Shown: in pieces, positions 158-20,000 of the stretch
How positions within the stretch are numbered: position 1 is the first letter of the stretch
Layout of the letters: the number at the start of each line of letters is the position of its first letter
Assembly (NCBI GenBank): GCA_013239625.1
Contig: MU053347.1
Coordinates: forward strand, 64,661 to 84,660
Length of the DNA stretch: 20,000 bases
Direction of reading: 5' to 3'
Source: Lama guanicoe
Lineage: Eukaryota
Notes under the pieces: model-generated
Seen by the model: the letters and a program-made list of their open reading frames with translations, nothing else
The model's database searches: none
What the model was told of the DNA's origin: nothing
Translations under genes and position numbers: made by a program

Positions 158-403
158 CTGCAATAAACTGCTCGTACTCAATGTCAGGGATGTTTCTGTT
201 GAGGTTTGAGAGGTCAAAGGAGTCGGACCAGGGAATCCAGACCTGGTTGATGTCAGGGCTCTGCCAGTGGTAGAGGTGGCCCCAAGGGGATAGCACCAGT
301 ACCGGCTCCTCCATCTTCAGCAGGGTCTTCAGGAGGAAGGCAATGTCAGACGTTCCTACGGAGGCTGATGCCCTCTGGAGGGTTCAAGTCACACAGAAGG
401 TAC
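158..403 (-). pseudogene. POFUT2: POFUT2 exon 2, disabled copy (unprocessed pseudogene)
   Basis: Minus strand reads [18 protein letters not shown] and then, after a frameshift, [62 protein letters not shown]. This matches human POFUT2 [83 protein letters not shown]. Acceptor ctttgctccctgtcag|G (AG at 405-404) and donor G|gtgag (GT at 157-156) are retained. Length is 246 nt versus 251 expected; TGA at 348-346. Confidence 0.93.
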
Positions 404-671
404 CTGACAGGGAGCAAAGGAGAGCAGGTCTTCAGGGCCAGGCCTCTGCACAGGAATCCTGGCTTAGATAGAACAGATACAACGGGAACCCCTGCACAGC
501 CAATGGCCTAGACTCCAGACACATTCAGCAGCTTCTGGATTGTAAAGTGGAGGCACTGCCCACCCATCTCCATGTGGCCAATTACTTCAAGTCCGGGAAC
601 AGTTGCGGAAGACATCTTGACGTATGTCTAACACCACTAAGCACCTGACTAGCACCTGAGCACCCTTTCTC

Positions 672-1143
672 CAGGGGCTCTCAAACTTCTTGTTCTACAG
701 AACCCTATACACTCTTAACAATTACTGAGAACTCCAAAAGGCTGTTATTTATGTGAGTTAAATCTATCAATATTTCCTGTGTTAGAAGTTGAATAAGAAG
801 TTAGAAAAAGTGTATGAATTCACTTAAAAATATTAACAATCTACTGTATGTTACCATTAATACTCTTAAACAAAATATAATTCTATTTTTCAAAACAAAA
901 ATCATTAGTGAGAAGAATAGCAGTGATTTTAATTTCTGCAAATCTCTTTTGGACTGGTGAGAGCTGAATTCTCCTATGTGCCTCTGCATTCCCTGTATTG
1001 TGATATCACAGGCCAGGGTTTCCCTGGAAAACTCCACAGGAACTAGGGAGAGCAAGAGTGTGCAAAAGGCAGGTGACATCCCGACGTTTCTATGAAAATG
1101 GTCTTGCACCTCAGGGGCCTTGGATACACTTTGTTAACTGCTG
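672..1143 (-). mobile_element. hAT-Charlie DNA transposon fossil (Charlie1b-like), inside the POFUT2-copy intron 1
   Basis: Termini CAGGGGCTCTCAAAC...CTTTGTTAACTGCTG, and internal 'acactcttaacaattactgagaactccaaaaggctgttatttatgtg' resembles the Charlie1 consensus. AT-rich island in a GC-rich background. Confidence 0.75.
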
Positions 1144-1800
1144 CCCTATCCTAGGCGGGACTCTTCTACACAAGAGCCAGGCAAGGGTCCTGGATTCTGT
1201 AATGAGTTACCGCCGCCACCGCACCCCTCCCTTCTCTGTGTGTTTCTCACAACCTCCATTACTGCAGATGAGGATGTAATCCTCAGCCAGGGCCTCTAAT
1301 CCCAGAAGACTGCTAACTTCAAGAGAGAGGGTCCCATCTACCATCCCTACACCCCGCATAGTTTATTTTGAGTCAAGCCCTAGATAACTCCTTATCGGCA
1401 CTGACCCTTGTCTTATTCCTGAGGTTGACTGAAGGAACCAACTTCTGGATGAGGATGGAACTTTCCCTGCAGATAAACAAGGCTGATAAACCACCCCATT
1501 CCAACATCTGATTCTGGGGCTCTTCAAAACCCGGGTAAGGCCCCGCTTCATCTAAGAGGGGTCCTCCGCCTGCCCTTCCCGGGGGGTTCTGGGAGGCCGC
1601 GGCCACCAAGGTAGACCCAGAATCGTGGCCCCAGCCCCAGGGCCTGAGGGGGAGGAAAGCTTGGGGCTGTGCCCAAGCCCTGCCCCGCCCCGCCCCAACA
1701 CGCTCACCGGCACCACAGCCCTCCCCAGCCACAACCCAAACCGCGATCCCACCCCGGTTCATGTCCACCGGCCCCGCCGACGGCGCGGACGTACGTTTAC

Positions 1801-1905
1801 CATCTGTGGGACTCCGCCCCAGACAGGATGTCAGCCGCCGACAGACCAGGCGAGAACTAGTCGCCCGGCCAAGCAAGCCGCCATCCCCAGCAGCAAGCAC
1901 CGCAT
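1801..1905 (-). pseudogene. POFUT2: POFUT2 exon 1 coding remnant
   Basis: Minus strand ATG at 1905 gives MRCLLLG (cf. signal-peptide FLLLG). A shifted frame gives [19 protein letters not shown], matching human [21 protein letters not shown]. Phase-2 donor TG|gtaaac (GT at 1800-1799) matches the phase of the exon 2 acceptor. TAG at 1859-1857; the ATG frame stops at 1833-1831. Confidence 0.85.
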
Positions 1906-1984
1906 TGTCCCTGGCAGCTACACACTTCCGGAGCCCGCTCCCCGCCCCAGAAGCGCACCCAGGCCCGCGCGGCACGCGGCGCCT

Positions 1985-1998
1985 GTAACCATGGCAAC
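1985..1998. promoter_or_regulatory. RFX-type X-box motif
   Basis: GTAACCATGGCAAC, a near-palindromic match to the RFX consensus GTNRCCATRGYAAC, inside the CpG island. Confidence 0.6.
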
Positions 1999-4004
1999 GC
2001 CGCGGGGCCCTCCCCTAGCGCTTGCGTTGTTCGTCCTCCTGAGTCTAGATGTGCGAGGGCAGAACATGCAGAGCCAATGGGAGCCAGGGCGCTGCCAGGA
2101 CAGGGGTGGGGGAGCTTATGGGACAGATGGGCGGGGCCGCGGCGGGCAGGGCCGCGCGGACGTTCTCACTTGCAGGTGGCGCCGGCCGGAGGCTGGGGCG
2201 TTGCTGCCACCAGTGGGCGGGGCAGCGGGGCAGCGGTGCGGCGGGGCCGGGGCACCCTCACCTGTCCGTGTGTGGGGATCAGCCTGGGCTCCACGGCCTC
2301 CGCTTGCACCGGACGTGGACCCAGGCTAGCTGTGGGCAAGATAGAGGACTGAGCCCAGGCAAGCAGGGCTGGCCAGGTAGGGCACCTGAAATGCAGATCC
2401 GCCAGGCCAGCTGCCGGCCTTGAATACGCGCTGCAAGGCAGTTTCCAAGAAGACGGGATCTGTCATAAGAGGGGAGGTAGGGCTGGGGTGCCAGATGCCG
2501 GGTTGGGTGCAGTCTCAGAGGAGAGCCATGGTGAGAGGGCGCAGAGCTGCCCCTGTTTTGGCGGGGCTAAGAGTTTGGGGTATAGGTTGGGGGTGGTTTG
2601 TGCCTTCCTCTGTGGTCTCCCCAAGAACCTTCACTCCAGAGCAAGGGTCTCTGCTACCCCCACCCCTCACTGCACTCCCTGCCTTCCCCAGCACCACCTG
2701 GGGTGTGGTCATGTCGGGGCAGGGAAGGCCCAAGGAAGGGGCTTATTCAGGGGCAGGGGCCACTCTGCAGGGATGCTGGAACTGACAGCGATGTGGTGCT
2801 TCGGAACTCCCCTGGGATGGGTTTCTAACCAGTGGGATGGAAGGGCCTCTCCTTCCTGAGGTGCAGTTGGGGGAACTAGATCCATCATGAATGTCAGCCC
2901 TGAAAATGGAGGCTGGGCTACATCCATTCCTAGAATGACAAATCAGGCCCCTCCAGCCAAGGTGACTCAGAAAGTCATTCAGCAATGTTCGGGGTCCCCA
3001 GTTTAGGCTTTCAATTAGAGCTGAGCAGCTCAGGAGGCCATATCCCTGTCCGTGGCTCCAGGAGTAGGCTTTCTGCTTGGGGACAGGCTCCTCACAAATA
3101 CCTGTGTCTTTGTGGGTCACTCCCCTCTGACAAGCTGGGAGGCAGGGTGCAGTTGTGGGAAATTGTGTTTCCATGAGGAGAGGGCCACCAAGTGCTGGGG
3201 GCACAGGAGAGGGTGAGAAAGAGTCCCGCAGCCTCTCTGGAATCAAAAAACTGGCAAAGGTGAAAAACTGCATAATTTGTTTTATTGAACAGGCTGCTTA
3301 TGCACGTTTGGAGGGCCAGGTTCAAGGACTCTGCATCCCTCCAGGACAATAGCCTCAAGAGAAGAACAGACAGAGTAGGAGGAGTTGTGGGGTTTCTCCC
3401 AGGAATGAGGCAGAACAGGGATTTCTGCAGATTTTCAAGGAGACCCCGACCACTGAGCACGGGGTTACAACCCCACGTGACCCCTGTCGTGTTTGGCTTG
3501 GGCTCTGGGTCTGGCCTGATCATGTATTCTTCCAGCTGAGTTCCAGAAACTCAGAGGGTAGACTTAGAGGGGCTGCGCTTGGAACCCGGCGTGGAGACGG
3601 AGGGTCCTTTATCCTGAGTCCCCTCAGCCTAATCACTGTAGCTGAGTTCCAACACCACCCAGGCCCCCGGGTGGCCGTGGAGGGAGAGCAAGCCTGGCAG
3701 GCGACCTAGGGGTCCCACTGCTGTGTTCTTCCCTTGTCTTCGTTCTCTTTCACCTCGGAAGGTGTGATTGTCTTGTGTCATGGTGGCCACCGCAATGTCC
3801 CTCCCACCAATCTCTTTTCTCCATCAGGTGGGGTTCCCACCCCCGCTCAGCCTTCTCTCTGCATGGATGCTGAAGGACCAGGCCCACCTGAAGTTCTGAG
3901 CTTGAGCAGTAAGTTGGAAACAAAGAAACCAATGGAAACAAAGAAGCAAGTGATTGTGGCAAAGCTCCCCACCACAGAGAAGCTGCCCTGAGTGGAAGGG
4001 AGTG

Positions 4005-4143
4005 TGTGGGCATGCCCATTTGTTTCCTGTCTCCCAGTGCTCTTCGCTTTCTTATTGCAGACCTGCATGTTTACAACAAAATGATCTGCAAAACTGAAAA
4101 TATTTACTCTCTGGGTTTTACAGAAAAGGCTGACCAGCCTCTG
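4005..4143 (-). mobile_element. MER58-like hAT MITE fragment
   Basis: 'ctgcaaaactgaaaatatttactctctgggttttacagaaaaggctgaccagcctctg' resembles the MER58A terminus CCGCAAAGCCTAAAATATTTACTATCTGGCCCTTTACAGAAAAAGTTTGCCGACCCCTG. Confidence 0.6.
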
Positions 4144-4869
4144 GTTCCAGTACCGGTCAAGTGTGGAGTACCTTTCCAGTTTGGAAACATCTGGGCAGGC
4201 CCAGGTTTGCCAAATCCCTTAAGAGTAGTTCCGGAGTTTGCTTCTAAACATTTTTACGGCTGTATACTTCTGAGCTGAGGTTGTGCTGTGTAATTCTGAG
4301 CCAGGATTTTCTCAAACTGTTTCTCATTTCTTATACCGGACACCCCTAAATTCCAAGGGGAATGGGATGTTAAGGAAGCCATGGAGTTTAGGAAAAAGAT
4401 ACAGATTTCATTTCCATTTAAGCTTCGATGTATCTCCATCCTAGGCAGTATCGGTTATGTGGTATTGATAGGGGAACTAAATAGCAACCAAATTTATAGA
4501 AAATAGTGGGTCATTGGGTACACAAGTTCTTCTTTTCAACATTTTTGTAATGTTTGCAGTTTAAGATGACCATTCCTGAGAAACAGGCAGCCTCTTAGAA
4601 TGAAATAGCATTTTCCCTGAACCATACTCAATTTTTATTTTGTAGACAGCAGGAAGGGCAATCACACATCCAACACTTGGGGACCTCGAAGATAAAATGT
4701 AACTTTCTGAGAGTACACTCCCCCAGTCTCCCCTTGCTCTTTTCACTGTCCCATTGTCCCTGAAGGCTCTTTCGTATCTTCTGCTCATGACTCCAGTAAC
4801 TCTTCCTCCTCGTTCCTCAGCTGGTAAGTTTACTTTTCTACTTTGACCAGGCAAACTGAAGCCAACAGA

Positions 4870-7163
4870 AGAGAACTTTCACCAGCAACTCCCAGCACAT
4901 CCGCTCTCCTTCTGATGTCTGTGACCTCACTCTCGCTGCCCCACCTCTTATTACAGGTGACATCGAAATCCAGATCATCCAAAGGTCGCCAGGGGGGCAA
5001 TCCATTCAATCTTCTCCGGGCTGTCACTCCCATATCCATCCTCTCTGTCACTACCTCATCTATTTTGTCCTCCTGTGAGTTGGCTCCTATCAGAATATAA
5101 ACGTCCATCGTCTTAAAAGGAACAAATAGCACTCCTTGACTCTAATTCACCCCCACCAATTGCCACCCCATGTCTTTGTGGCAAATCTTTAATGAGTAGT
5201 TTAAACTCACTGTCTGCATATTCCCTTGAGCCATCGCCTTTTGCACCCACTCTGGCTTTTCCCCTGATCCCTTGCTCTATGGAAACTGCTCTGTCAGGGC
5301 CATCAGTGACTCCACGTTGCTAAACATAGTGGTCAGTTTTTAGTCTTCATCATGTGTGGCCCTTTGGCAGCATTTGACCCAGCTCTTCCATCCCTCCTCC
5401 CCCGTGTTCCTGCTTTACTTGGCCTCCAGCCCATCGCTCTGCTTTCGATCCACTGGCTGGTCTTTTGCCAACGTCTCCTCTTTTATCCATTTACTGCGAA
5501 TGTGCCCCGAAGTTGGGTCCTGGGTCTCACCACTAACTCTCTGCTATACATTTGGTGGAAGCAACCAGACTTGGAAATTGACATGCCATCAATTTCTCGA
5601 TTTGTCCAAAACTCTGATTGGCCCTTTCCATTTGGAACTCTCCCTGATACTCATATTCTTTTTCTTTCATTCATCTTGCTTTCACATTCATACATATGTT
5701 CTACTGTGTAAATTACTTTTCCAAATTTTGAATCAGTCCATACATATCATGTAAAATGCTCAGATCTCTATTATTTCCATTAAGATGCTTATTCTACCTT
5801 AGAACCTTTCTGCATTTCTGTATTTATGTCAATAAAGTGAATAGTATTTCTACAAGCCTCATAGTTAAACAGTGTGTTTGTTTGGGGCTATTATGTAACA
5901 TGAAATAATGATACATCAACATAGTCCTTTTTCATTTAATTTTATGTAACACCAAGATGAGGTTTTTGCACTGAAGACTGGTTTTATTGAAATTTTACCT
6001 ACGTTTTGGACAGTCAGTTTATGTGAAAGCTCTCATTTCTCCCCTTTTCTGATGTATTTTCCATTTGGCTATTATAACATACACCTTGGCATGAAATAAA
6101 ATTACAAATTCATTCACATAATAAAATTAATATATTTAAATTATATTCTTTAATGTTAAAAAGAAATAAAAAATAAACCCAGACTCCTCTACCTATTAGG
6201 CATTTCTATGGCAATATCTAATAGACTCCTTAACCATGACATTGAAGAACTGAGCTTATTCCAGCCCCTTCCCACCTGCTTAGCCCCATCTTGTCCCATC
6301 CCCTGTGGATGGAGAGGACATCCATCCCATTTTCCAGGTCAAGATGTTGGAACCATGTTCTTTCTCTCTCTTTCTCTTACACACACACACAGCAAATCCA
6401 GCTTGTTAGAAAATTCTGACTACTCTGTCTTCATGAACCACCTACTCCCTGTTCCCCACCCTCCTAGAAACCACCTTCAGCCCCTTGGACACCAAATAGC
6501 CTCCTTCTTCCATCTTTGCTTTTCTACAATCTCATCCACACAGAGTCAGAGGGAGCCTATAAAAGCATACATTGAGGGGGTGGGTTTAGCTCAGTGATAG
6601 AGCGCATGCTTAGCATGCATGAGATCCTGGGTTCAAACCACAGCACCTTCACTAAAATAAATAAATTACCCTCTGCCCCCCAAAAACCAAAACAAAAGCA
6701 TAAATTGGATATCACACATCCCATCAAAACTCACTAAAAGGGTCAACATTTCATTAGGAGCCAAAGTCGTCCAAATGTCTTCCAGGACTCGGCGTGCTCT
6801 GCCTCTCCGCCCACACTCTCCCCATCACTCTGGGCGCCTCTGGCTCCGGCTCTTCCTTCTTCCTCCGGATCTATGCTGCTTCAAGTTCATTACTCCGTGA
6901 GATCTGCCAGGATTTCCTTATTCCCTCCTGCCTGCCTCGCACCCTACCGCCATCACCTGAGTTTGCTCATATCACTCTTATTTATCCCCAAGCTCTTGCT
7001 ACCCCCAACATGCTGCCTGTTTCCTCTGCTAAAACTCTGAGCCCCCTGTGATGGGGAGTCGTGTCTATTTTGTTGACTAATAAAGCCCAAGGGCCTTGGG
7101 AATGGGTATAGTTACTAGATTCCCATATGTAGTAGGAGCTTATACAGATTTGCTGAATGAATG
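4870..7163 (+). mobile_element. Old LINE-2 (L2a-like) copy, interrupted at ~5555-6177 and 6575-6693
   Basis: Degenerate RT motif at ~5276-5380 (SMETAL..ISD.HVAK.SGQF...LAAFD, cf. L2 STETAL...DLSAAFD), pyrimidine-rich L2 body, and a 3' tail 'atttgctgaatgaatg' ending ~7163. Confidence 0.75.
6575..6693 (+). mobile_element. tRNA-Ala-derived SINE, camelid Vic-1 type
   Basis: GGGGGTGGGTTTAGCTCAGTGATAGAGCGCATGCTTAGCATGCATGAGATCCTGGGTTCAAACC (A and B boxes), followed by AAATAAATAAATTACC, a C-run and an A-rich tail. 14-nt target-site duplication aaaagcatacattg (6561-6574) / aaaagcataaattg (6694-6707), one mismatch. Confidence 0.88.
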
Positions 7164-7399
7164 CAGAGGTCCTTGTCCAATCCGATGGAGCACTTCTGTG
7201 TCCTGCTCAAAGAATAACTCTCCTTTCCTCCTGAGAGGGGGTGACCACTTCCTTGGTGATCAAAGGCAAGATCTATTATCTTTATGCTGTTAACCTTAGG
7301 CGGGGAGACTGGGGATCTTCATTTATATTTTAAAATTTGATTCACTCTGCAATTTGTCTTCTGTCTAAGTATCCTTTTGAGAAACCGTTTATGAGTGAT

Positions 7400-7530
7400 C
7401 ATTCTTCCATCAGATTGAACAGGATCCAGGGGGAAGTACCAACACTGTCCCATCGGCCATCCTGTGTGTCATGTCCTGTGACCCAGTGAATACTCAGCAC
7501 GTAAGTGAACCGACAGGAGTGAGTGAAGAG
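7400..7530 (+). mobile_element. L2 3' end fragment (L2b/c-like)
   Basis: 'ccatcagattgaa...cagtgaatactcagcacgtaagtgaac...gagtgagtgaa' resembles an L2 terminus; highly diverged. Confidence 0.4.
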
Positions 7531-8249
7531 ATGGGAGCATCTCATTATTGTGGTGGCTGCACTCTGCCCGATGCCTTGAGATTTGGGGTTTACAAGTGCG
7601 GAGGGGAGAGGCCAGGTCCTCTGTGCTCTTCCTGAGTGCCCTGGCCTTACCCATTCCCCCAGCCCCCTCTGGGCAGCCAACCCGAGGAGCTGGGCCACCG
7701 GCGATTGTGCTGATCACTAATCGACCTCACCCAAAGTCCGGGGGTTGGAGCGGCCAGCACAACTGGTTGTAGACTCTGGAGTCAGGTCCTTGGAGGAATT
7801 CCTCACTGAACGATGTTTTGGACCTTTCATTTTTCTCTATAGCCTCCAGCTGAAGAAACAGATCGCCTTAGATACATGAAAGGTGAAGACACCTACTATC
7901 CCCATGGAGCCCAGGTGGGGCTGTGAGTCTGCTCTTTGTACAGCCGGTGGGCTCGTGTTGCTTTGGGCATCCCTGTGCCTGAATTCCTGCAGTACACTCG
8001 GTGGTAAGAACGGGGGTGCCTGGCAGGGAGGGAAGCGTGTCGGGAGAGTGCACAGCTGGGGAGACTTTTACCTGCGGTGAGCGGGAGCTGGCTGATGCAT
8101 GGAATCTCGGTGCAGGGAACTCTCCACACTCAGAGAGGTTCCCACTCCCGCAGGGTCCCTTTGATCAGGGTGCTGGGTTGTCAGCAAAACAGGGTCCCTG
8201 TGAGGATCATGGTGCCTTCAGGCAGTGGGAAGTGAGGGGTCCAGTGGCA

Positions 8250-8355
8250 CTTACATTAACTGTGCACCCGAAGCCAACCCCCGTCTCTTTCAGCCTGTTT
8301 CCTAATCTGCAAAATTGGAATGATGTTAACCATCCCGCAGGTTCGTTGATGGGCT
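8250..8355 (+). mobile_element. MIR SINE core fragment
   Basis: 'cagcctgtttcctaatctgcaaaattggaatgatgttaaccatcccgcaggttcgttg' resembles the MIR core CCTCAGTTTCCTCATCTGTAAAATGGGGATAATA. Confidence 0.55.
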
Positions 8356-8429
8356 GGGACACACTAGACAGCCAGGAGCTGGAATTCCTCTGTCCCCTGA
8401 TTGTTATCCTTCTTTTCCACTATTTGCTC

Positions 8430-8680
8430 TCACAAGCTGTCTCTCTGTCTCTCTCTATTCACTTGTAACATTCTCTCCTGCTCTGGTTTCATTTGATTCC
8501 CACCCTCCTCCCAATCCCCAGATGAGTGAAATTAATTTCTGTGTGTCAGTTCCAAATTCCCGGGAAAGATGCTCTGTCTCCTCTGGATTGGTTGTCCAAC
8601 CCATCAGTTGCAGCCAGAGGAGTGACTCCCTCTGTGACCAGTGGAGGGGCTCTGCCCAGACCCCAGCCACCACTGTGGGA
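8430..8680 (-). mobile_element. Old MaLR LTR fragment (MLT1J/K-like)
   Basis: 'agttccaaattcccgggaaagatgctctg...ggttgtccaacccatcagttgcagccagagg' resembles an antisense MLT1K-type LTR. Confidence 0.45.
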
Positions 8681-11560
8681 GCACATAGCTCTCCGTGGAG
8701 GAGGTACTGGCTGTGACTTGGTGTCACTAAGTGTGAAGTTTTGTCTTCTCTTGCCCCACCTTCATCCTCCTAAACAAAGATGAAAATTAAACACTCCCGG
8801 GATTTGTATCATGGAACACTCAAGGTGGGGGCTAAGACGGCTGGATTCCCTGCTGAGTGTAAGGGGCTACAGTGACTCCCCAACGAGAGCCTGTAAAGGG
8901 AACCGCACCGGCCCCACAGGACACTTAGGGCACTGAGTCTGCGTGGCATTGAGCCAGGCTTCTGACTACAGCTTAGGGATCTGTTCTGACCGGTTAGTCT
9001 TTGAAACCAACCAGCTTTGGATTCCTCAATCCCTCCCTGAGGTTTTACCTGAACCACCAGCTTCTGTATCTCTGAAGACAGATGATGAGGACCCTTCACG
9101 TAAGGCATTTGCACAGCCCTGTGCGGGAATTTGTGCTGCACGGTCTGCCAGGTGAGCTGACCGAAGTTGGTATTTTACTGATCTTAGAAATAGTCTGGTT
9201 TCCTGATGCACTGTTTCACTGAACATGCAACAGAAGCCACCTGTGGCTGATAAAAGCAAAAAAAGGGACTTAATGAAAAGATACTGGGAGGGTGCATGGA
9301 GTGGCCCGGACCAGAGCCGACCCGGGGGCCGTAGGAGATGTGGGGGAGCTCCAGGCACCAGGCTGGGTAGGGTGCTACCAGGCCCCCTGCTGCCCCATCA
9401 GGGACCCCCCTCCTCCTGACCCTCCACCTCACTGCAGGTTCATGTCCCAGCAGGGCCAGGTCACACTGAAGCCACCGGCACACACCTCAATGGGGGAGTT
9501 GGCCCCGTCTCAGCTGAGGGCGTGCCTGGTGTGGGGAGATGCCCAGTTAGAGGAAGGCGGTTCCCCTACTGTTCCGAGTTAACGTGCAAGTCAGTGCCCG
9601 TCACTCAGGAGAGCCAGGCTGGTCGGACCTCATTGTGGTGACTAGGCCGTCTGAGTTCACTTACTACTTTTTAGGTTGGAAGGCCCAAGAGGGAGAAAAA
9701 GTGGAGGTTCTAGTACTTATTTTATATTTCCCATATACCAGGTGCGGTAAGCAAGCCACTTCAGACAAGGCCCAGAGCAACCACGTAAATAGTCCACGGA
9801 GCAAGTCGTGCAGTCAGGCCTCTGCAGCCACGAAACCCGTGTCATCATCAGCTCCGTAGTTACCAGTGGATGTTGTAGGGATTTATGGGACTGTGTGCTC
9901 CTGTGGGGGCTGTGATGTGTGTGTTTAAATCCACATCTTTAGAAACTCAGCTAGAACCACAGTCACTGATTGTCTGCACGGAGGCAGAGGAGGGGAGGCT
10001 TCCAGCCTCTGGTCCAGCTTGTGAGGAGCTCAGAAGCTGCTCCTTCTGTCCTGAAAACAATACCAGAGCTGAGGGAGCTGAAAACCCACTGCTCTTCTTA
10101 GATCCACAAGAAAACTGAGGGGGAAAGCTGCTCCCAACCCAGAGAGGCAGCCGGGCAGGCTTGGAGAGCACATCTCCCAGGGAAGGACCCGCTTTTGTAA
10201 GAACCCCGGGGGCAGGCAGATTTAACAGGTCCCTAATACTAGCTGTAGGCTCAGCGTGGGGAAGTCTGAGTGTGACAACTCCAGGGGGCCAGTCAGAGGG
10301 TTCCCCTTCTCTTTTTCATGCATTTTACCTCCAGGACCGTACCCTGTTCTAAGAGTGATGATCATAGGAAAACTCCTCATGCTTCCTGCCAGGAAAGGAA
10401 AAAATATCTCTATTGAAATACACCCAGAACATTCTCTTCCATTGTAGGCAGTTGTGTTTTGCTTTTTTTTTTTAATGAGAAATTATTTTACCAGAGCCTA
10501 ACCTACCTGGGGGAAGGGAAATCCCTTCTGTGTCACCCAAATTGGGGTGGGGGGGAAGAGACACACTTGTGGAGGTCACAGCTCAGGGCACAGGCTCAAT
10601 GAGAATTACTCACAGGACTACAGATGCCCTGCTCTGTCCCCCTCCCCCAACCCCTTACCTCCATGACAGGAGGGCCCCTGTGTAATGACAGGAATAAAAT
10701 TAAAAGAAGTAAATGTCTCAGGAGTGTCTAGGGAAAACCCAAAGTCAGGGGGGAGATGAAAACAAGGACACACAGGCGGCTTTAGCCTCTCACACGAATA
10801 GCTGTAGCAAACTACACACAGCCCAGCCCCAGTAGATAAACAGAAAACCTCACAGAAGAAACTATTTATTTTGGTTCTCTTACCCAGTGCATTCCATGGT
10901 GCATCCTCGCCTAGAATTGAGTGGAAGCAAGTCCATCTCAGAAGGGACATAACTGAAGAGGAATGGCTTTCCAGACCCTGATGGGCAGAGAAAGCACCAG
11001 CCTGGGATAGAGAAAGGTGAGGGGTGGGGTAGGGGGTGGGCTGTCTTCTTCCCCAAATAAGGAATCTTCTTGAGGCCAGCACAGTGGGAGGGAGGACCAT
11101 GGGGTGGAAGCAGCCAGACTTCTTCCTGAGAAGTGATAAGATGCCTACAAGGGACCATTCAGGTGCCCAAACTGGGTCCTGACGGTGGGAGCCAGTCGGT
11201 CTGCCTCAGAGCCCAGGACTGAGGTGGGCGCACAGCAGGCTGGTCTTACTTGGCTGGATCCATTTCAATTCTCCGAAGCCTTGTGTAAAACATGAAGCGT
11301 GGACGGCCTTGTGAGCACAGCTCTGCCCTCAAGACCGGTTTCAAATCCTCTCTTCCCAGAGAACAGCATCTCTGTGCCCATCCTGGGTGACCTCACAGAG
11401 ATCACCCTAGTGCCCCAGGCTAGTAACCGGGAACATGTACCTTCCTGCAGCCAACTCCAGACGTCCACTGATGCATCATATACTGGCAAAGATGTGAGTC
11501 CCTGTGCATTGGTCTAACAGCAGAGACTCTGCCACAGACCCAAGAGGTGGTGTGTGGGAC

Positions 11561-11742
11561 ATGCAGGGGTGCAGGAGTGTACGCAGCAGAAAGGTGTAAG
11601 TGGTGGCAGGGGTGAAGGGGCTTTGGGGGATGCAGGCAGTTCAGGGAATGTGGGGGTGCAGGCAGTGCAGAAATGCAGAGAGTGGCAGGGGTACAGAGGT
11701 ATAGGGAGTGTAGGGGTGCAGGGAGGTGCTCAGGCAAGTGCA
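11561..11742 (+). repeat. Degenerate G-rich ~8-bp simple repeat (GGGGTGCA)n
   Basis: Recurrent ggggtgcag / ggggtacag / ggagtgtag / gcagtgcag units immediately left of the large array. Confidence 0.7.
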
Positions 11743-11789
11743 CATCCTCACAGTCAGCCTGACCACGGGAGGCTAGTGCAATGGTTTGG

Positions 11790-13850
11790 GGCGGCTGAGG
11801 CGGCGGCGGCTGCGGGTGGGAGGCTGCCCGGGCAAGCCGGCCGATTTCTTCTCTTCCCTGCAGCCTGGCCTGGAGGGGCCTTGGCCGCCAGAGATTCGCC
11901 AGATGTTGGACTCCAGGTAAGCTTGCTCCTGGGAGGTGGGGCGGTTAGGTCAGCGGGCGGCGGCAGCGGCAGGGGGGCAGAGCGGGGCTGCCTCTGACGA
12001 ACTGGTGGAATAGCTGCCTTGTCCCGGCTGCCGGGCCTGGGAGCGGCGTCTGCTGCCCCAGGTCGCCGGACACACCTGTCCCACTCAGCTTCCTGAGTGG
12101 GGAGTGGAGGCGGTGTCGTTAAGGTGCGGGGCTCACGGGGGGGAGGGGGGCTGCCGCGGGGAAGCCGGTCAATTCGCCCCGCTCTCTCCCGCGGCGGAGC
12201 CTGGGAGCGGCCTCCGCTGCCCTAGAGGCGGGACGCCGGTCTCCAGGTGACCTTGCTCCTGAGAGGCGGGGGCGGCGGAGCCAGGCGGAGGGGACCGTTC
12301 CAGGGAGCTGCTCCATTTCTTCTCTCCCCCGCGGCCTGGTCTGGGGGCGACCTCTGCCGCCGGAGATTTGCCTGAGTTCCGACTCCAGGTGAGCTTGCTC
12401 CTGGGAGATGGTTGTGGTGCGGTCAGGAGCTGGTAAGTTGGTGGCTGCGGGGATAGGGAGGCTGCCCCGGGGTAGCTTGTGGATTAGCTCCATGTCTGCA
12501 CCTCATGGCCTGCATACGGCCTCTGCTGCCCCAGGTTCCGGGACACCCCTGTCCCACTTAGCCAACTTGGGGCGGGAGGCAGGGTAGTCAGGGTGCAGGG
12601 GTGGTGGGGGTCGGGGGCCTGCAGAGGGGAAGCGGGCCCATTTGCTCCCATCTTCCCCGCGGCTTGTCCTGGGGGCGGTCTCTGTTGCCCTGGGTTACGG
12701 GACACGTGTATCCTAGTCAGCCTGACCCTGGGAGGTGGGCGTTGTACGTTGGGGGTGGTGGCAGCAGCGGCGGGTTTTCCCATGAAGCCGGCCCATTTGC
12801 TCCCATTTCCCCTCATGATTTGCCCTGGGGGCGTTCCCTGTTGCCCCAAGTTCGCCGGACGTCCATCTCCAGGTCAGCCTGCTCGCTAGAGGAGGCCACC
12901 GTGAGGTTAGGGGGCAGGAGTGGTGGCTGCTGCGGGGGGATGGGTATGCCTTGGGGAGTTGGTGGATTGGCTTCAGTCTCCCCGATGGCCTGCTGTGGGA
13001 GTGGCCTCTCCTGCTCCAGATCAGCAGACACACCCGTCCCATTCAGCCTGCTGGGGGAGGGGCGCCCTGGGCATTGCCTTTAAGGTGCGGGGATGGCGAA
13101 GGCAGGGGTAGAGGACCTGCAGCGCGGAGCTTGTCAATTTGCTCCCCTCTTCCCCGCGGCCAATCCTGGGGGCGTCCTCTGCTGCCCAAGAAGCCGGATG
13201 CCCGTCTCCAGTTCAGCTTGCTCCTGGGAGGCGGACGCGATGAGGTCGAGGGCAGGTGCAACCGGCCGTCGCAGCTGCCTAATGGGGCCACTTCTTGTCC
13301 TTTCCCCTGACCTAGCCTGGGGACGACCTCTCCCGCCCAAGATTCGCCTGACACTCCACACCAGGTCAGGTTGCTCTTGGGAGGTGGGCACGGTGAGATC
13401 AGGGGTTGGAGAGGAGAGGGGTGCTATCTATTGCGAGCTGGAGGATAACCTCCCATCTCTCTGGAGGCCTGATGTGGGGGCGGCCTCTGCAGCCCTCGTT
13501 CCCAGGTCACCCTTCTCAGGGTCATATTGCCCCGGGGGTGAATTAAGGTGCGGGGCGGCGGGGTGATGGCGAGGGTATGAAGCCTGCCACTTGGGAGCTA
13601 GTTGTTTAGCTCCCATCTCCCCAGCAGCTTCGCCTGGTGGCAGCCTCTGTTGCCCCAGGTTGCAAAGCACAGTTTCCCTGACAGCTTAGCCACCAGAGGT
13701 GGGCACGATGTGCTGAAGGGCAGAGGCAGCCACCAAGGCAGCGACGGAGGGGGCTGTCCCTGGCCAGCTGGTCTATTTGTTCCCATCTCTAACTTTGCTG
13801 TCCTTCTCCAGTTTATCCTTCTCCTGGGAGTTGGGCACAGTGCATGCAGC
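11790..13850. repeat. GC-rich tandem array: ~13 diverged ~160-bp monomers with ~470-490-bp trimeric higher-order structure
   Basis: The motif chain 'ccatttgctccc...cctgggggcggcctctgctgcccc...ctccaggtgagcttgctcctgggaggtggg' recurs with the cctctgctgcccc anchor near 11880, 12048, 12211, 12351, 12520, 12679, 12835, 13005, 13176, 13327, 13484 and 13644, plus a truncated unit near 13800. Every third monomer is more similar. Confidence 0.88.
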
Positions 13851-14137
13851 CCAAGGTCTGGGCTCGCCCCTGGGGAGGGGCAGAGCTCTCTTCTTCTCCT
13901 TTGTCTTTATTCTTCAGCGAAGGGGTTACTTGACCCAATTCTTAATCCTGAGAATGTGTAGCCTGTGTTACGAAAGAGCTGCTGGACAGTGTGGTTTCTA
14001 GGTGGGTTTTCACATCAGCTGATGTCCAAGACAGGCAGGAAAGCTATTACTCAGAGCTTCTTAGTCTGGAGTTGGGGGATGGCCCCGCTGCCCTCACCAT
14101 ACTTTTTAAAAATGTGTTACTTTCCTCTTTTTCCTAG

Positions 14138-14241
14138 GTGACATTTATTGGGTCACAGATTGCTGGCACGCTCATCCCTGTTCTCAAACATCTTTTAAAC
14201 TTGGGTGAAGTGATAAGTAGGGGAAGATGATTTACTGAAAG
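14138..14241 (+). other. Candidate internal exon (104 nt, probably non-coding), origin unrecognised
   Basis: Strong acceptor 'actttcctctttttcctag|G' and strong donor 'AAAG|gtaaga'. All three frames contain a stop, and it does not resemble the MRAP2 transmembrane exon. Confidence 0.5.
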
Positions 14242-15216
14242 GTAAGAATACTTAAATTCGCATTAAAGCTACATTCTGTCAATCTTTCTAAAATGATTTT
14301 CCTCTGATTCTAAATCCACGACCTAGTGAATGTTGTACTCCTGTGTAAATCATTGATCTTCACATCACATTTGTTAAATGATCAATGAGATTTGTTAAGT
14401 AGATTATTCCTGAAAGGAAAAGCTCAGGCTTTTGAGAATTCCTTGTCTGATGTCACCCAGGGAGTCACAGTAGAAGACAGATCTGATATAAAAATCCCTC
14501 AGCTGCCTGAACTGCAAAGCTTCTGGGATTACCGATCCCTGAAATGCAGGTGACTCTTGATGATATTCTAGGGGATGATTTACATGATCAGATTCTTCCA
14601 GTCCTATAAATGGGTTCCGTGGCCCCAGCCCCGGGAGAACTGGACATAAGGGCCATATCGTGTGTAGAATTCAAGGTGTAAGAGCTGGAACCACTGAGAT
14701 TCCACACTCACTAAACACAGACTCCAGAGCCTAATTGTTGTCAGGTTCTGTTCTGGATTTCAGAGTTTGTTCAGGCATGATTCTTGCCCTTCAGGAGTCA
14801 CTGCCTGGGTGGAAGTATCCTTTACACAAATCTGGGAAGGATGGCAATAAAGTAGATGGTCTGTTATGTTTCTCAATGTGCCCAGTCTCGCTCTTCCAGG
14901 CACTCATGGGGCTAACGAGGGTCATGTTACTCACTCATTCACTGATTTATTACCCTTGAATTGATCATTTGTCCCACTTTAAGTGAAACAAGGGATCAGG
15001 AGCATGAGTTTTGTCCCCTGTTCTATCACTGATTGTATCTGTCAGTTGGGCGCCCTGCGTATGCATTGTGAAATGTTGGTATTTCTTGCCCAATGGGGCA
15101 GCACTGTCAGTTCTGAGAATCAGGGGAGTCTCCTGGGTAGGACAGCACACTGACACACATGGCACCACCCCACCCCGTGAGACAGCATTGTCGATGCTCA
15201 GGTGACCCGATGTAGA

Positions 15217-15387
15217 AGCGGTGTTAAACCTGAGAACGTTTAGTGATCTTGGCAGCTCTGAAAATACAGACTACCGGTCCCTACCTCTGGAGACGCTGAG
15301 TGACTGTACCCCAGAATTCTGCATTTTAAGAAGCACTTTAACTAATTCTGATGAAGATGATCTGAGTGTCCCATTGAGAAGCATTGT
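15217..15387 (+). mobile_element. MER5A-like hAT MITE
   Basis: 'gcggtgttaaacctgag...aaaatacagact...agaattctgcattttaagaagc...attctgatg...ttgagaagcattg' is collinear with the MER5A consensus. Confidence 0.65.
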
Positions 15388-15630
15388 TGTGCGATAGAGC
15401 AATATTGAGGATTCTCTGGGAACGATGTCTTTTCAGGATGGTCCAACGGCCCTCACTTGAGACTTTCGCCTTGGGTTTAATTGTATGAGTTCAGAAGTGA
15501 TGTCTCTCACTTCCAGTGCTTGTAAGCGTGCTCTGTGCAGAGACTTGCACTCAGTAGATGGCAAAAACTATGATTCTTCAGGTCACTGAGCTAGAGTGTG
15601 AACGATCTTTTATTTTGGTTTTCTTTATAG

Positions 15631-16020
15631 CAATGCAGAGTCTCCCGAGAAGAGATTCAGATTGAACAGATTTGTGTCAGACTTTGGAAGACCGCTTCTG
15701 CCCAAGGTGTTCTCTGGCAGCGCAATGATGAATCTAGGTCCCTCTTTCACTGCTACGTCAATGAGGTGGACCACTTGGACAAGGACAAAGCTAGTATCTC
15801 AACCATTGCCCTTGACAGTGATATTCGGCTCCAGGAAGCCATCAGATGCAGCAGGTGGCCAGAGGAGGAGCCAAACAGGCTTTTGAAATGTGACATCCCC
15901 AACTTCATCAACACGGACCAGAACTCTTCCTTTGGGGAAGATGATCTCCTGATTTTGGAACCACCATTTGTTCTAGAAGATAAGCCAGTTGCTCAGACCT
16001 CACACAAAGACTTGAATTGA
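15631..16020 (+). pseudogene. MRAP2: MRAP2 last coding exon, frameshifted partial copy
   Basis: After acceptor 'ttttggttttctttatag|C' it reads NAESPEKRFRLNRFVSDFGRPLLPKVFS, then a 1-nt deletion at 15715/15716, then QRNDESRSLFHCYVNEVDHLDKDKASISTIALDSDIRLQEAIRCSRWPEEEPNRLLKCDIPNFINTDQNSSFGEDDLLILEPPFVLEDKPVAQTSHKDLN*. This matches the human MRAP2 C-terminus (NAESSEKRFRMNSFVSDFGRPLEPDKVFSRQGNEESRSLFHCYINEV...IPNFVNTDQNYFGEDDLLISEPPIVLETKPLSQTSHKDLD). Confidence 0.9.
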
Positions 16021-17570
16021 GAAACGTGTTATGTCAAGTGTCTTTCTGAAGATGTGAAGTCTGTCTTTGTATGGCAGGAATTCCCCTTTCACAAAATTGT
16101 ATGTGTTTGTGTCTGAGAAAGAGAAATGGAGACAGACAGAAAGACGGAGACAGAAGAGCGCCCCCTCAGAAGAGAGCTAGTTAAGGTGAGTTTTGTGCCT
16201 TTAAAAAACATTTGGGGTTTTGTTGGGAACAAAGTATTTACACTGTCTCATTCTCCTCGTTGGAAACCTTGGCCCCATACTCAGTGTTAGCAGCCTTGAA
16301 CGGGGGCTGGCACGGTGCGTTTCATCTGGCGCTGCCACTTCCATGCTCTGCCTTTAGCATGTTGCTTTCCCTGTCAGGGCTACCATGCTTTTAACTGAAA
16401 GGAGAGGAGTCTGGAGTAGGTGATCCATCCCAGCTCTGCTGTTTTTCAAATTTCTGATTTCGTATTCGGATGAGGCTGGGAGACACCCAGAACAGTATAA
16501 ACCAGGCCCTACCTCCAGCCTATTGCTGGGGCATCCCTCAGGTCTGTGCCTTCTACTCAACCCTTTACTGAGCCCAGCTTTTGTCAGGAGCCCAAGTGCC
16601 TACCAAGATGGCAGGGGACGTCTCTCGTGGTCATGGTGGCCATCATTTCTTTTGGTTGTGCTGAAACAGCTCTTCTGAGATCCCCCGGCCAACCTTGCTC
16701 AAACCTGAGGACAACCCTGTTGTTTCTTTCCTAGGAGGATTATCAAAGCATGGTGCATTTTATGACAATCCTGTCCCCAGGAATGCACGGAAGGTTATAA
16801 GCTGAGTGAGGGGAGCTGCCTCTGTGTCCCTGTGTCCCTGAATCTCTATCTGCTCACAGTGCCCTGCCACCGGCTACTGAGCAAGAAAATGCTATTCACC
16901 ATGTTGTGTGTTTTGCAGACGTGTAGGTGATGGTCGTGTGGCTCGTGTGTGGGCTTTCAGCTGGGATGTTGAAGAGCTTATAAATACCTCACCAACATGT
17001 ATTCGAGGTGGCCTGGTGCCACACAGACTTCATTCGTGAAGGCATCAAGCCTGCACACTGGTTTGGAAACAACTTGGTTTTGATCAGTCACACTGCATGC
17101 ATGACTCGCTGCTAATATCTGGGTGGTTTTTCCATTTTAGATTTATTCACCCAGTGTCTTGCTTAAGCTGAAAAATTCATTTATTTCACTAGAATATTCT
17201 CTGATTCTTTGATTTCACACTTCCAGTTGTTTAATTCCTTTAAAAATTGTTCTGTGTTTATAATGCCTCCTTATTTCTATCATCTCTAGGTTCCCAGTGG
17301 CCTGAGCCATGCACCAGATTTTATTTAGGAACTGTTCCACCAAAAGAAATCCCCTCGCCATAATATCTTTAGAGGAAAATACTATTCTTTAAGACTCTAA
17401 CACTAAATCGTAGAACAAGCATGGAATATTTCTTGTAGTTAATACATGTTCATGCAAAAAAACTTGATATTTTCATTGAAGAATGTTGATTTTGATAACT
17501 TTCACTAATGTGAATATTATTATTCATAATTTAAGTAACCAAATAAAACCAGTTATTTATTATTAAGAAT
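16021..17570 (+). other. MRAP2: Probable MRAP2-derived 3' UTR
   Basis: Unique sequence following the stop codon that becomes AT-rich and ends near an AATAAA. The extent is inferred, not aligned. Confidence 0.5.
17542..17547 (+). terminator. Candidate polyadenylation signal
   Basis: AATAAA about 1.5 kb after the MRAP2 stop, in an AT-rich context. Confidence 0.5.
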
Positions 17571-19597: not shown

Positions 19598-20000
19598 TTT
19601 TTTTATTTTTAATATTTTTATTGATGTATAATCATTTTACAGTGTTGTGTTAAATTCCAGTGTTCAGCAGAATTTTTCAGTCATTCATGGACATATACAC
19701 ACTCATTGTCATATTTTTTTCTCTGTGATTTATCATAACATTTTGTGTATATTTCCCTGTGCTATACAGTGTAATCCTGTTTATCTATTCTACAATTTTG
19801 AAATCCCAGTCTATCCCTTCCCACCCTCTACCCCCCTGGTAACCACAAGTCTGTATTCTCTGTCCATGAGACTGTATTTATGTTTTTTATTGTTTGTTTT
19901 TGTTTTTTAGATTCCACATATGAGCGATCTCATATGGTATTTTTCTTTCACTTTCTGGCTTACTTCACTTAGAATGACATTCTCCAGGAGCGGAGCATCC
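19598..20000 (-). mobile_element. Young LINE-1 3' end (camelid-type), antisense, running off the window
   Basis: T-rich tail, then 'tttccctgtgctatacagt', 'ccctggtaaccacaagtctg', 'tttagattccacatatgagcgatctcatatggtatt' and 'ctggcttacttcacttagaatgacattctccagg', typical of the reverse complement of an artiodactyl L1 3' UTR/ORF2 end. Confidence 0.88.

What the first reader, a model, noticed from the sequence alone, without database searches (positions are those of the whole stretch)
11790..13850. Unrecognised ~160-bp GC-rich tandem array with trimeric higher-order repeat
Seen: ~13 monomers spaced ~140-171 bp apart, in three cycling types. Type A has 'agattcgcc..actccaggtragcttgctcctgggag' (GT at 11917, 12389, 12873, 13365; spacing 472, 484, 492). 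Type B has 'gtggattagc...gacacacctgtcccactcagc' (~12005, 12480, 12962, 13440). Type C has 'caatt(t/c)gctccc..ttccccgcggc'. CpG is densest in the left units and more decayed to the right. I cannot match it to a named satellite or transposon. Inference: an old, short, CpG-island-like satellite that may act as a regulatory or duplication core element.
Basis: seen in the sequence. Interest (0 to 1): 0.75.

Follow-up and report, generated by a model that had tools for sequence, protein, structure and literature searches.

The report
Spliced old repeat in camelid duplicon
An old, worn row of about 13 GC-rich repeats lies inside a gene-like block that camels and alpacas carry in many copies, and gene predictions splice several of its units as small exons; it is probably raw material of a young non-coding gene family, not a satellite or a working protein gene.

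Summary
The array is real: 12 full monomers of 143-171 bp, one truncated and one partial (11742-13884), 53-74% alike. The period of three is significant (p=0.0008) but rests on the B units; A and C do not separate. It is not a satellite. It is a frozen local repeat inside a camelid mosaic duplication, between a dead POFUT2 5' end (with CpG island) and a frameshifted copy of MRAP2's last exon. Eighty camelid RefSeq predicted proteins (at least 28 Bactrian loci, plus dromedary, wild camel, alpaca) map here as spliced exons. All use monomer A1; others use C1-A2, A3, C3 and C4-A5, often at equivalent positions in the unit; B units are almost never used. The same exon is read in three frames and this copy has stops, so the RNA is probably non-coding. 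No read-level evidence was obtained, and no non-camelid relative or paper was found. The scan noted what is probably another copy earlier (e1-7859016). Verdict: an exonised old tandem repeat in an apparently undescribed camelid duplicon family; moderately interesting.

The parts
11742..11834 (+). partial monomer (C0, 3' half only)
   Evidence: monomer profile hit, E 1.6e-5
11835..13884 (+). tandem array: monomers start at 11835 (A1), 12001 (B1), 12163 (C1), 12306 (A2), 12474 (B2), 12631 (C2), 12786 (A3, C-like), 12957 (B3), 13128 (C3), 13283 (A4), 13436 (B4), 13596 (C4), 13764 (A5, truncated)
11864..11916 (+). A1 mini-exon, 53 nt: pyrimidine tract with AG at 11862-63, donor CAG|GTAAGC at 11917
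   Evidence: A1 used by 80 of 80 mapped models; junction 11494->11864 in 71, donor 11917 in 59
12200..12388 (+). exon spanning C1 and A2; start varies 12200-12208 among copies; donor CAG|GTGAGC at 12389
   Evidence: 11917->12200/12204/12208 in 42 junctions; donor 12389 in 34
12828..12905 (+). A3 exon (starts ~12828 or 12851; donors 12873 or 12906), rare
   Evidence: P0040, P0052, P0086, P0114
13160..13211 (+). C3 exon (starts ~13160 or 13191); the homologous donor reads TT in this copy, while the camel models translate as an intact GT
   Evidence: 12389->13191 in 19 junctions
13685..13855 (+). exon spanning C4 and A5; acceptor at 13685, donor at 13856
   Evidence: acceptor 13685 in 22 junctions, 13856->14138 in 7
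11360..11493 (+). exon just upstream of the array (second acceptor at 11451)
   Evidence: donor 11494 in 73 junctions
3828..11016 (+). further upstream exons of the same models: ~3828-3913, 4124-4204, ~4915-4956, 7414-7500(7615), 7843-7882/8003, 8294-8340, ~9036-9165, 10888-11016
14138..14205 (+). exon downstream of the array (mapped coding part only)
   Evidence: acceptor 14138 in 9 junctions
15631..16020 (+). copy of MRAP2 exon 4 only, with its acceptor. A small net deletion near 15715 shifts the frame, so only the last 98 codons read as MRAP2 in the long open frame. AATAAA at 17542.
   Evidence: exon layout from PMC8946000 section 3.3
1500..2400 (.). CpG island (GC 0.69, o/e 0.66) at the 5' end of the POFUT2 copy; probable promoter of the plus-strand transcript (inferred)
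158..1992 (-). POFUT2 pseudogene: exon 2 at 158-403 with a frameshift; probable exon 1 at ~1801-1992 with a stop (exon 1 assigned from position, donor site and recalled sequence)
   Evidence: Pfam O-FucT E 2.5e-7; PDB 4ap5 E 1.3e-26; translations

Best explanation
An old GC-rich tandem repeat (unit ~160 bp, partly amplified as a three-unit block, then left to decay) was caught in a camelid mosaic segmental duplication, between a dead POFUT2 5' end and an MRAP2 last exon. The block was then copied to dozens of loci with the array frozen. A plus-strand transcript, probably from the POFUT2-copy CpG island (inferred), crosses the array. The unit carries a 5' splice site (GT kept in 7 of 12 monomers) and a pyrimidine tract ending in CGCGG, one or two changes from a 3' splice site. 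Point changes switched sites on in some units and off in others; A1's TGCAG fits two CpG deaminations (inferred). Each genomic copy therefore splices its own mix of mini-exons, mostly into non-coding or weakly coding RNA and sometimes into the MRAP2 fragment. Shown: array, neighbours, multi-copy predicted models, site positions. Inferred: promoter, direction of change, real splicing in cells, lack of protein function.
For: A splice-blind protein-to-DNA alignment of 80 camelid RefSeq models put 398 of 402 junction 5' ends within 3 nt of GT (18 of 21 distinct ends; background 0.33) and 378 of 402 3' ends within 3 nt of AG (17 of 23; background 0.42). Donors of A1, A2, A3 and C3 share one alignment column; B1-B3 lack that GT and B units are used by 1 of 80 models. 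One C. ferus locus splices A1, A3 and C3 in turn (P0086). The acceptor column reads CGCGG in 4 monomers and ends in AG in 2 (A1, C4). Copy number: 28 Bactrian LOC ids on 14 sequences of different length, 8 dromedary, 4 wild-camel and alpaca models on 5 sequences (my count; lower bounds). Non-coding signs: A1 is read in three frames (26, 12 and 4 of the proteins held); this copy has stops in upstream exons; two candidate isoforms stop after 48 and 45 codons; MRAP2-derived blocks are no better conserved (0.84, n=4) than array (0.85) or upstream blocks (0.91). All 12 HMM hits among 1.84 billion proteins are camelid.
Against: The splice evidence is second-hand: it comes from predicted RefSeq proteins whose RNA support I did not see, and no reads were laid. 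Isoforms and near-identical loci are not independent, and 79 of the 80 models were found with queries that contain array sequence. Of the 9 camelid MRAP2-like copies found from the MRAP2 side, only 2 clearly use array exons and 2 more show short array matches. 24 acceptor ends have no AG in this copy. No model was traced into the CpG island. No mammalian genome could be searched, so the origin of the array and its absence outside camelids are not shown.
Confidence: 0.66

Rival explanations
1. The array is itself a tandem promoter and first-exon cassette: each CpG-rich unit can start transcription and ends in a 5' splice site, and it lends a promoter to downstream fragments such as MRAP2 exon 4.
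For: The donor GT is the shared state (7 of 12) while the acceptor looks derived. The left 640 bp meets CpG-island values. Donors 11917 and 12389 join the MRAP2 acceptor in 4 models.
Against: 73 of 80 models enter the array from an upstream exon, and none of the 80 starts in it. Whole-array CpG o/e is 0.50. There is no start-site data, and models starting inside the array might have been missed by my queries.
Confidence: 0.12
2. It is an inert decayed minisatellite, and the exon models are annotation noise from weak transcription and multi-mapping reads.
For: Frames are inconsistent and there is no sign of protein constraint. No Pfam family passes its cut-off for 5 models. A1 has no stable RNA fold (z +2.2). 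No read-level proof was obtained.
Against: The same junctions recur in annotations of four species, on canonical sites at equivalent monomer positions. Biologically this differs from the best explanation mainly in how much spliced RNA is made.
Confidence: 0.12
3. The array is a remnant of a catalogued element, such as the monomer region of an old L1 5' UTR, an LTR/ERV internal repeat or a gamma-satellite-like family.
For: Unit size and GC content resemble L1 promoter monomers and GC-rich satellites (recalled). A stretch at ~9990-10900 looks like an old L1 5' piece (recalled, untested).
Against: That stretch lies upstream of the array and about 800 bp away. No L1 or ERV domain was found in the 9 nearby ORFs scanned (weak for old elements). 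No Rfam hit. The alpaca satellite catalogue lists only 1.8-8.5-kb units.
Confidence: 0.06
4. Some copies encode a working chimeric protein: array exons spliced in phase 0 to the shifted MRAP2 exon give a soluble product ending in MRAP2's last 98 residues, which could modulate energy-balance receptors.
For: Models P0001, P0006, P0037 and P0046 have this layout. The shifted frame is open in the window and 9 other predicted proteins. The isolated exon-4 domain of human MRAP2 dimerises and binds PKR2 in vitro (PMC8946000 section 3.3).
Against: The window's tail is 79% identical to camel MRAP2, whereas camel versus whale MRAP2 is 90%, which suggests relaxed selection. Much of the PKR2-binding stretch (residues 78-131) is out of frame, and there is no transmembrane helix. 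Open frames are what the predictor selects for. This copy's two tested isoforms stop early.
Confidence: 0.04

Closest known systems
Primate mosaic segmental duplications and core duplicons, e.g. LCR16a/NPIP (PMC7419210, passages seen)
   Same: Lineage-restricted, spread over many chromosomes, patchwork of gene pieces, transcribed, with fusion transcripts that seldom keep an ORF.
   Different: No conserved ORF or positive selection is shown here, nor that this segment seeds the duplications. The exons come from an old tandem repeat.
FIRRE lncRNA repeat RRD (PMC4820808, passages and supplement seen)
   Same: A local repeat of similar size (152 bp, 10 copies in human) that supplies exons to a multi-exon non-coding RNA.
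   Different: RRD belongs to one X-linked locus and has a tested role (nuclear retention, hnRNPU binding). Here the units are head to tail, only parts of them are exonic, and the whole locus is multi-copy. Sequence homology could not be tested.
Alpaca satellites VpaSat01-20 and pseudogene-rich blocks on chromosomes 11, 17, 36 (PMC13751797)
   Same: Camelid repeat-rich blocks holding many fragmented gene copies.
   Different: Listed units are 1.8-8.5 kb. The blocks named (NEK10, ATF5, FMN2, ABHD17A and others) are reported absent in camels. The sections read do not name MRAP2 or POFUT2, and this family is annotated in camels as well as alpaca.
Exonisation of repeats by point mutation, as for antisense Alu elements (recalled)
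   Same: A repeat consensus one or two changes from a splice site yields alternative exons in some copies.
   Different: The source is a tandem array, not a retroposon, so equivalent sites recur every ~160 bp.

Membership tests
Satellite DNA with higher-order repeat | Long array of many units | tested here: not met
   13 units plus a partial one, ~2.1 kb
Satellite DNA with higher-order repeat | Multimer copies much more alike than monomers within a multimer | tested here: not met
   core identity 0.66 at lag 3 versus 0.57-0.61 at other lags except 6; A-C (0.656) is close to A-A (0.665)
Satellite DNA with higher-order repeat | Monomers cluster by position in the multimer | tested here: inconclusive
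   mod-3 p=0.0008; B clusters weakly, A and C do not separate
CpG island | GC >0.5-0.55 and CpG o/e >0.6-0.65 (recalled thresholds) | tested here: inconclusive
   whole array 0.65/0.50 fails; left ~640 bp 0.70/0.66 passes
CpG island | Unmethylated, open chromatin | not testable with these tools
   no methylation or ATAC data
Mosaic segmental duplication | Intron-bearing pieces of unlinked genes side by side | tested here: met
   POFUT2 exons with intron and MRAP2 exon 4 with its acceptor; that the two genes are normally unlinked is recalled
Mosaic segmental duplication | Many dispersed copies | tested here: met
   at least 28 Bactrian loci on 14 sequences, by protein models; DNA of the other copies not seen
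Core duplicon | Shared seed of blocks with differing flanks | not testable with these tools
   no genome held; no longer fusion protein found, weak evidence
Core duplicon | Transcriptionally active | tested here: inconclusive
   multi-isoform RefSeq models in four species; no reads seen
Core duplicon | Encodes a lineage-specific protein family, often under positive selection | tested here: not met
   three frames for one exon and stops in this copy; dN/dS not computed
MRAP family (PF15183) | N-terminal and transmembrane region from exons 2-3 | tested here: not met
   only exon 4 matches the window; no Pfam hit
FIRRE RRD | Sequence homology to RRD and FIRRE synteny | not testable with these tools
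   the supplement gives lengths and primers, not the consensus
L1 5' UTR monomer array | Monomers at the 5' end directly followed by L1 ORF1 | tested here: inconclusive
   no L1 domain in 9 nearby ORFs; no Dfam/Repbase available

The most novel reading that the evidence does not exclude
The POFUT2-promoter / array / MRAP2-tail segment is a camelid core duplicon with a function. Its array acts as a combinatorial splice cassette whose units are switched on and off by CpG decay in each copy, giving a family of dozens of regulatory RNAs. A few copies make a soluble MRAP2-tail protein that tunes melanocortin, ghrelin or prokineticin receptor signalling in animals adapted to fasting and fat storage.
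Probability: 0.06. Interest if true: 0.85.

Novelty: new member of a known kind. Interest (0 to 1): 0.4.

Why it matters
It points to an apparently undescribed camelid family of at least 28 loci that databases list as 'uncharacterized protein' or 'MRAP2-like', which can mislead annotation, read mapping and MRAP2 studies in camelids. It also offers a natural series in which one frozen repeat array, copied many times, gains and loses splice sites by point change, so exon birth can be followed copy by copy. Any physiological role is unshown.

Tried and rejected
Own-genome search: no genome held. Tandem Repeats Finder misses the array. Rfam: nothing in the array at E<=1. Pfam: nothing above cut-off for the window ORFs in or near the array or for 5 models; the DUF6083 hit at E 0.044 was dismissed. 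An exact 25-base motif gave 1 match in metagenome contigs, L001, a bacterial-looking stretch sharing only those 25 bases, rejected as chance, and 0 in viral contigs. Longer fusion proteins: none among 8000 candidates, weak evidence. CTCF-like motif not enriched. Stable RNA fold of A1 rejected (198 of 200 shuffles fold as well). Short alignment blocks under 6 residues were dropped before junction counts as noise. Literature: nothing on this family in searches for MRAP2+camel+duplication, alpaca+VicPac4 (18), camel multi-copy family (41), SAC-SAT (43), core duplicon/lncRNA/camelid (51), MRAP2+alpaca (66) and exonisation of tandem repeats (76); only listings were seen unless stated, and subscription journals are largely missing. 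bioRxiv 2025.08.28.672513 (part 1 of 2 read; supplement not seen) and PMC9190059 (abstract) added nothing. For PMC13751797 the satellite consensus cells were cut at 400 letters and were not aligned to the array, and the slide supplement was unreadable; a 160-bp sub-unit inside a longer satellite is therefore not excluded.

Full report
Observation. The sequence holds a real array. Window seeds and a monomer profile find 12 full units of 143-171 bp, a truncated thirteenth and a partial unit in front, from 11742 to 13884. Shared 6-mers peak at one, two, three and six unit lengths, with z 7-12 against 100 shuffles. Pairwise identity is 53-74%. Grouping by position modulo 3 is significant (p=0.0008), modulo 2, 4 and 5 is not. 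The signal is mostly 'every third unit is B': B versus the rest ranks 1 of 495 labelings, A versus C 14 of 70. A3 falls outside the A1/A2/A4 group and no branch is strongly supported. CpG declines weakly to the right, and only the left third has CpG-island values.

Surroundings. The ORF at 15631-16017 is a copy of the last exon of MRAP2. Its best relatives are 9 alpaca, dromedary or unnamed MRAP2-like proteins, ahead of true MRAP2 (31 hits among 38 candidates). Only exon 4 is present, with a small net deletion that shifts the frame (exon layout from PMC8946000 section 3.3). At the other end, 158-403 on the minus strand is POFUT2 exon 2 with a frameshift, and the probable exon 1 has a stop and lies in a CpG island at 1500-2400. 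The window is thus a camelid mosaic of dead gene pieces; the species was not determined. Earlier unchecked scan notes describe the adjoining DNA as an ANO6-POFUT2 block of over fifty copies. I checked the POFUT2 part, not that copy number.

Copies elsewhere. Searching with the array-derived part of one alpaca model gave 10 hits among 993 candidates, all camelid 'uncharacterized' proteins. A profile search of 1.84 billion representatives gave 12 hits, all camelid. The cluster lists name 28 Bactrian LOC ids on 14 sequences of different length, 8 dromedary and 4 wild-camel ids, and alpaca models on 5 sequences (my count; one cluster of 84 was listed only in part). Absence of non-camelid proteins says little about non-coding DNA in other mammals.

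Splicing. I aligned 80 of these models (P0001, P0006, P0037-P0114) to the window with a method that allows long jumps but knows no splice signals. After dropping blocks under 6 residues, 398 of 402 junction 5' ends lay within 3 nt of GT and 378 of 402 3' ends within 3 nt of AG; by distinct end, 18 of 21 and 17 of 23, against backgrounds of 0.33 and 0.42. The models run from exons at 3.8-11.5 kb into the array. Monomer use was A1 80, C1 51, A2 39, C3 23, C4 23, A5 22, A4 7, A3 5, C2 4, C0 2, B1 1, B2-B4 0. The donors of A1, A2, A3 and C3 occupy one column of the monomer alignment, and B1-B3 lack that GT. Four junctions lead from array donors to the MRAP2 exon. These are predicted proteins: isoforms and close loci are not independent, 79 of 80 were found with array-containing queries, and no reads were laid.

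Mechanism. The donor GT is kept in 7 of 12 monomers, so it is probably ancestral. The acceptor column reads CGCGG in four monomers and ends in AG in only two; A1's TGCAG is what two CpG deaminations of CGCGG would give (direction inferred). Copies differ: the C3 donor reads TT here but translates as GT in camel models, and 24 acceptor ends lack AG in this copy. The simplest reading is exonisation of an old repeat, proceeding differently in each copy of the block. Monomers differ by about 35%, whereas copies of the block match at about 85-91% in translation, roughly 6% in DNA if neutral (rough estimate). The array is therefore much older than the spread and has not been homogenised.

Coding or not. 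A1 is read in three frames in different models. This copy has stops in two upstream exons, and two candidate isoforms end after 48 and 45 codons. MRAP2-derived blocks are no better kept than the other exons. The 98-residue tail is 79% identical to camel MRAP2 and 84-91% to nine sister copies, while camel and whale MRAP2 share 90%. A non-coding or weakly coding RNA is most likely. A soluble MRAP2-tail protein from a few copies is not excluded but unlikely.

Comparison. It works like the fusion-transcript-rich duplicons of primates (PMC7419210, passages) and like lncRNA local repeats that supply exons (FIRRE RRD, PMC4820808, passages and supplement), but membership of either is not shown. It fails the tests for a satellite with higher-order repeat. 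The 2026 alpaca satellite catalogue (PMC13751797: abstract, most of the results, first part of the discussion, spreadsheet with cut cells) lists no unit of this size. Seven searches found nothing on the family. Dfam, Repbase and mammalian genomes could not be searched, so 'uncatalogued' remains open. An earlier scan note, e1-7859016, describes a spliced GC-rich array in a camelid amplicon on another piece of this genome; it is probably a sister copy and is not independent support. My sequence look-ups did not retrieve it.

Verdict. Observation largely right, interpretation partly right. New member of a known kind; interest 0.4.

Noticed in passing
window 158-1992 (minus) and 1500-2400: POFUT2 pseudogene 5' end with its CpG island. 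The plus-strand transcript models diverge from it. In human a lncRNA (LINC00205, recalled) diverges from the POFUT2 promoter, which may be the ancestor of the upstream exons.
   Followed up: partly
window 15631-17550: MRAP2 exon-4 copy; the same frame shift appears in the window and 9 other predicted camelid proteins, so it predates the spread. GenBank dromedary models name these copies simply 'MRAP2'.
   Followed up: partly
window 15061-15430: Several dromedary models use further exons here in front of the MRAP2 exon.
   Followed up: no
LOC141578400: One Bactrian family member is listed with a sequence of the same length (99,165,517) as that bearing true MRAP2; it might mark the source region.
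   Followed up: no
window ~9990-10900: Looks like an old L1 5' piece in sense orientation (recalled, untested); it supplies the acceptor of exon 10888-11016.
   Followed up: no
window 11560-11735: Short G-rich degenerate repeats (units of about 9 and 25 bp) directly in front of the array.
   Followed up: no
window, between 6 and 7 kb: One tRNA-like Rfam hit, probably a camelid tRNA-derived SINE (recalled).
   Followed up: no
window 7411-7500 and ~14120-14200: These two exons resemble old L2/MIR pieces (recalled, untested), in line with a non-coding transcript.
   Followed up: no
window 19600-19960: AT-rich stretch resembling an L1 3' end in reverse orientation (recalled).
   Followed up: no
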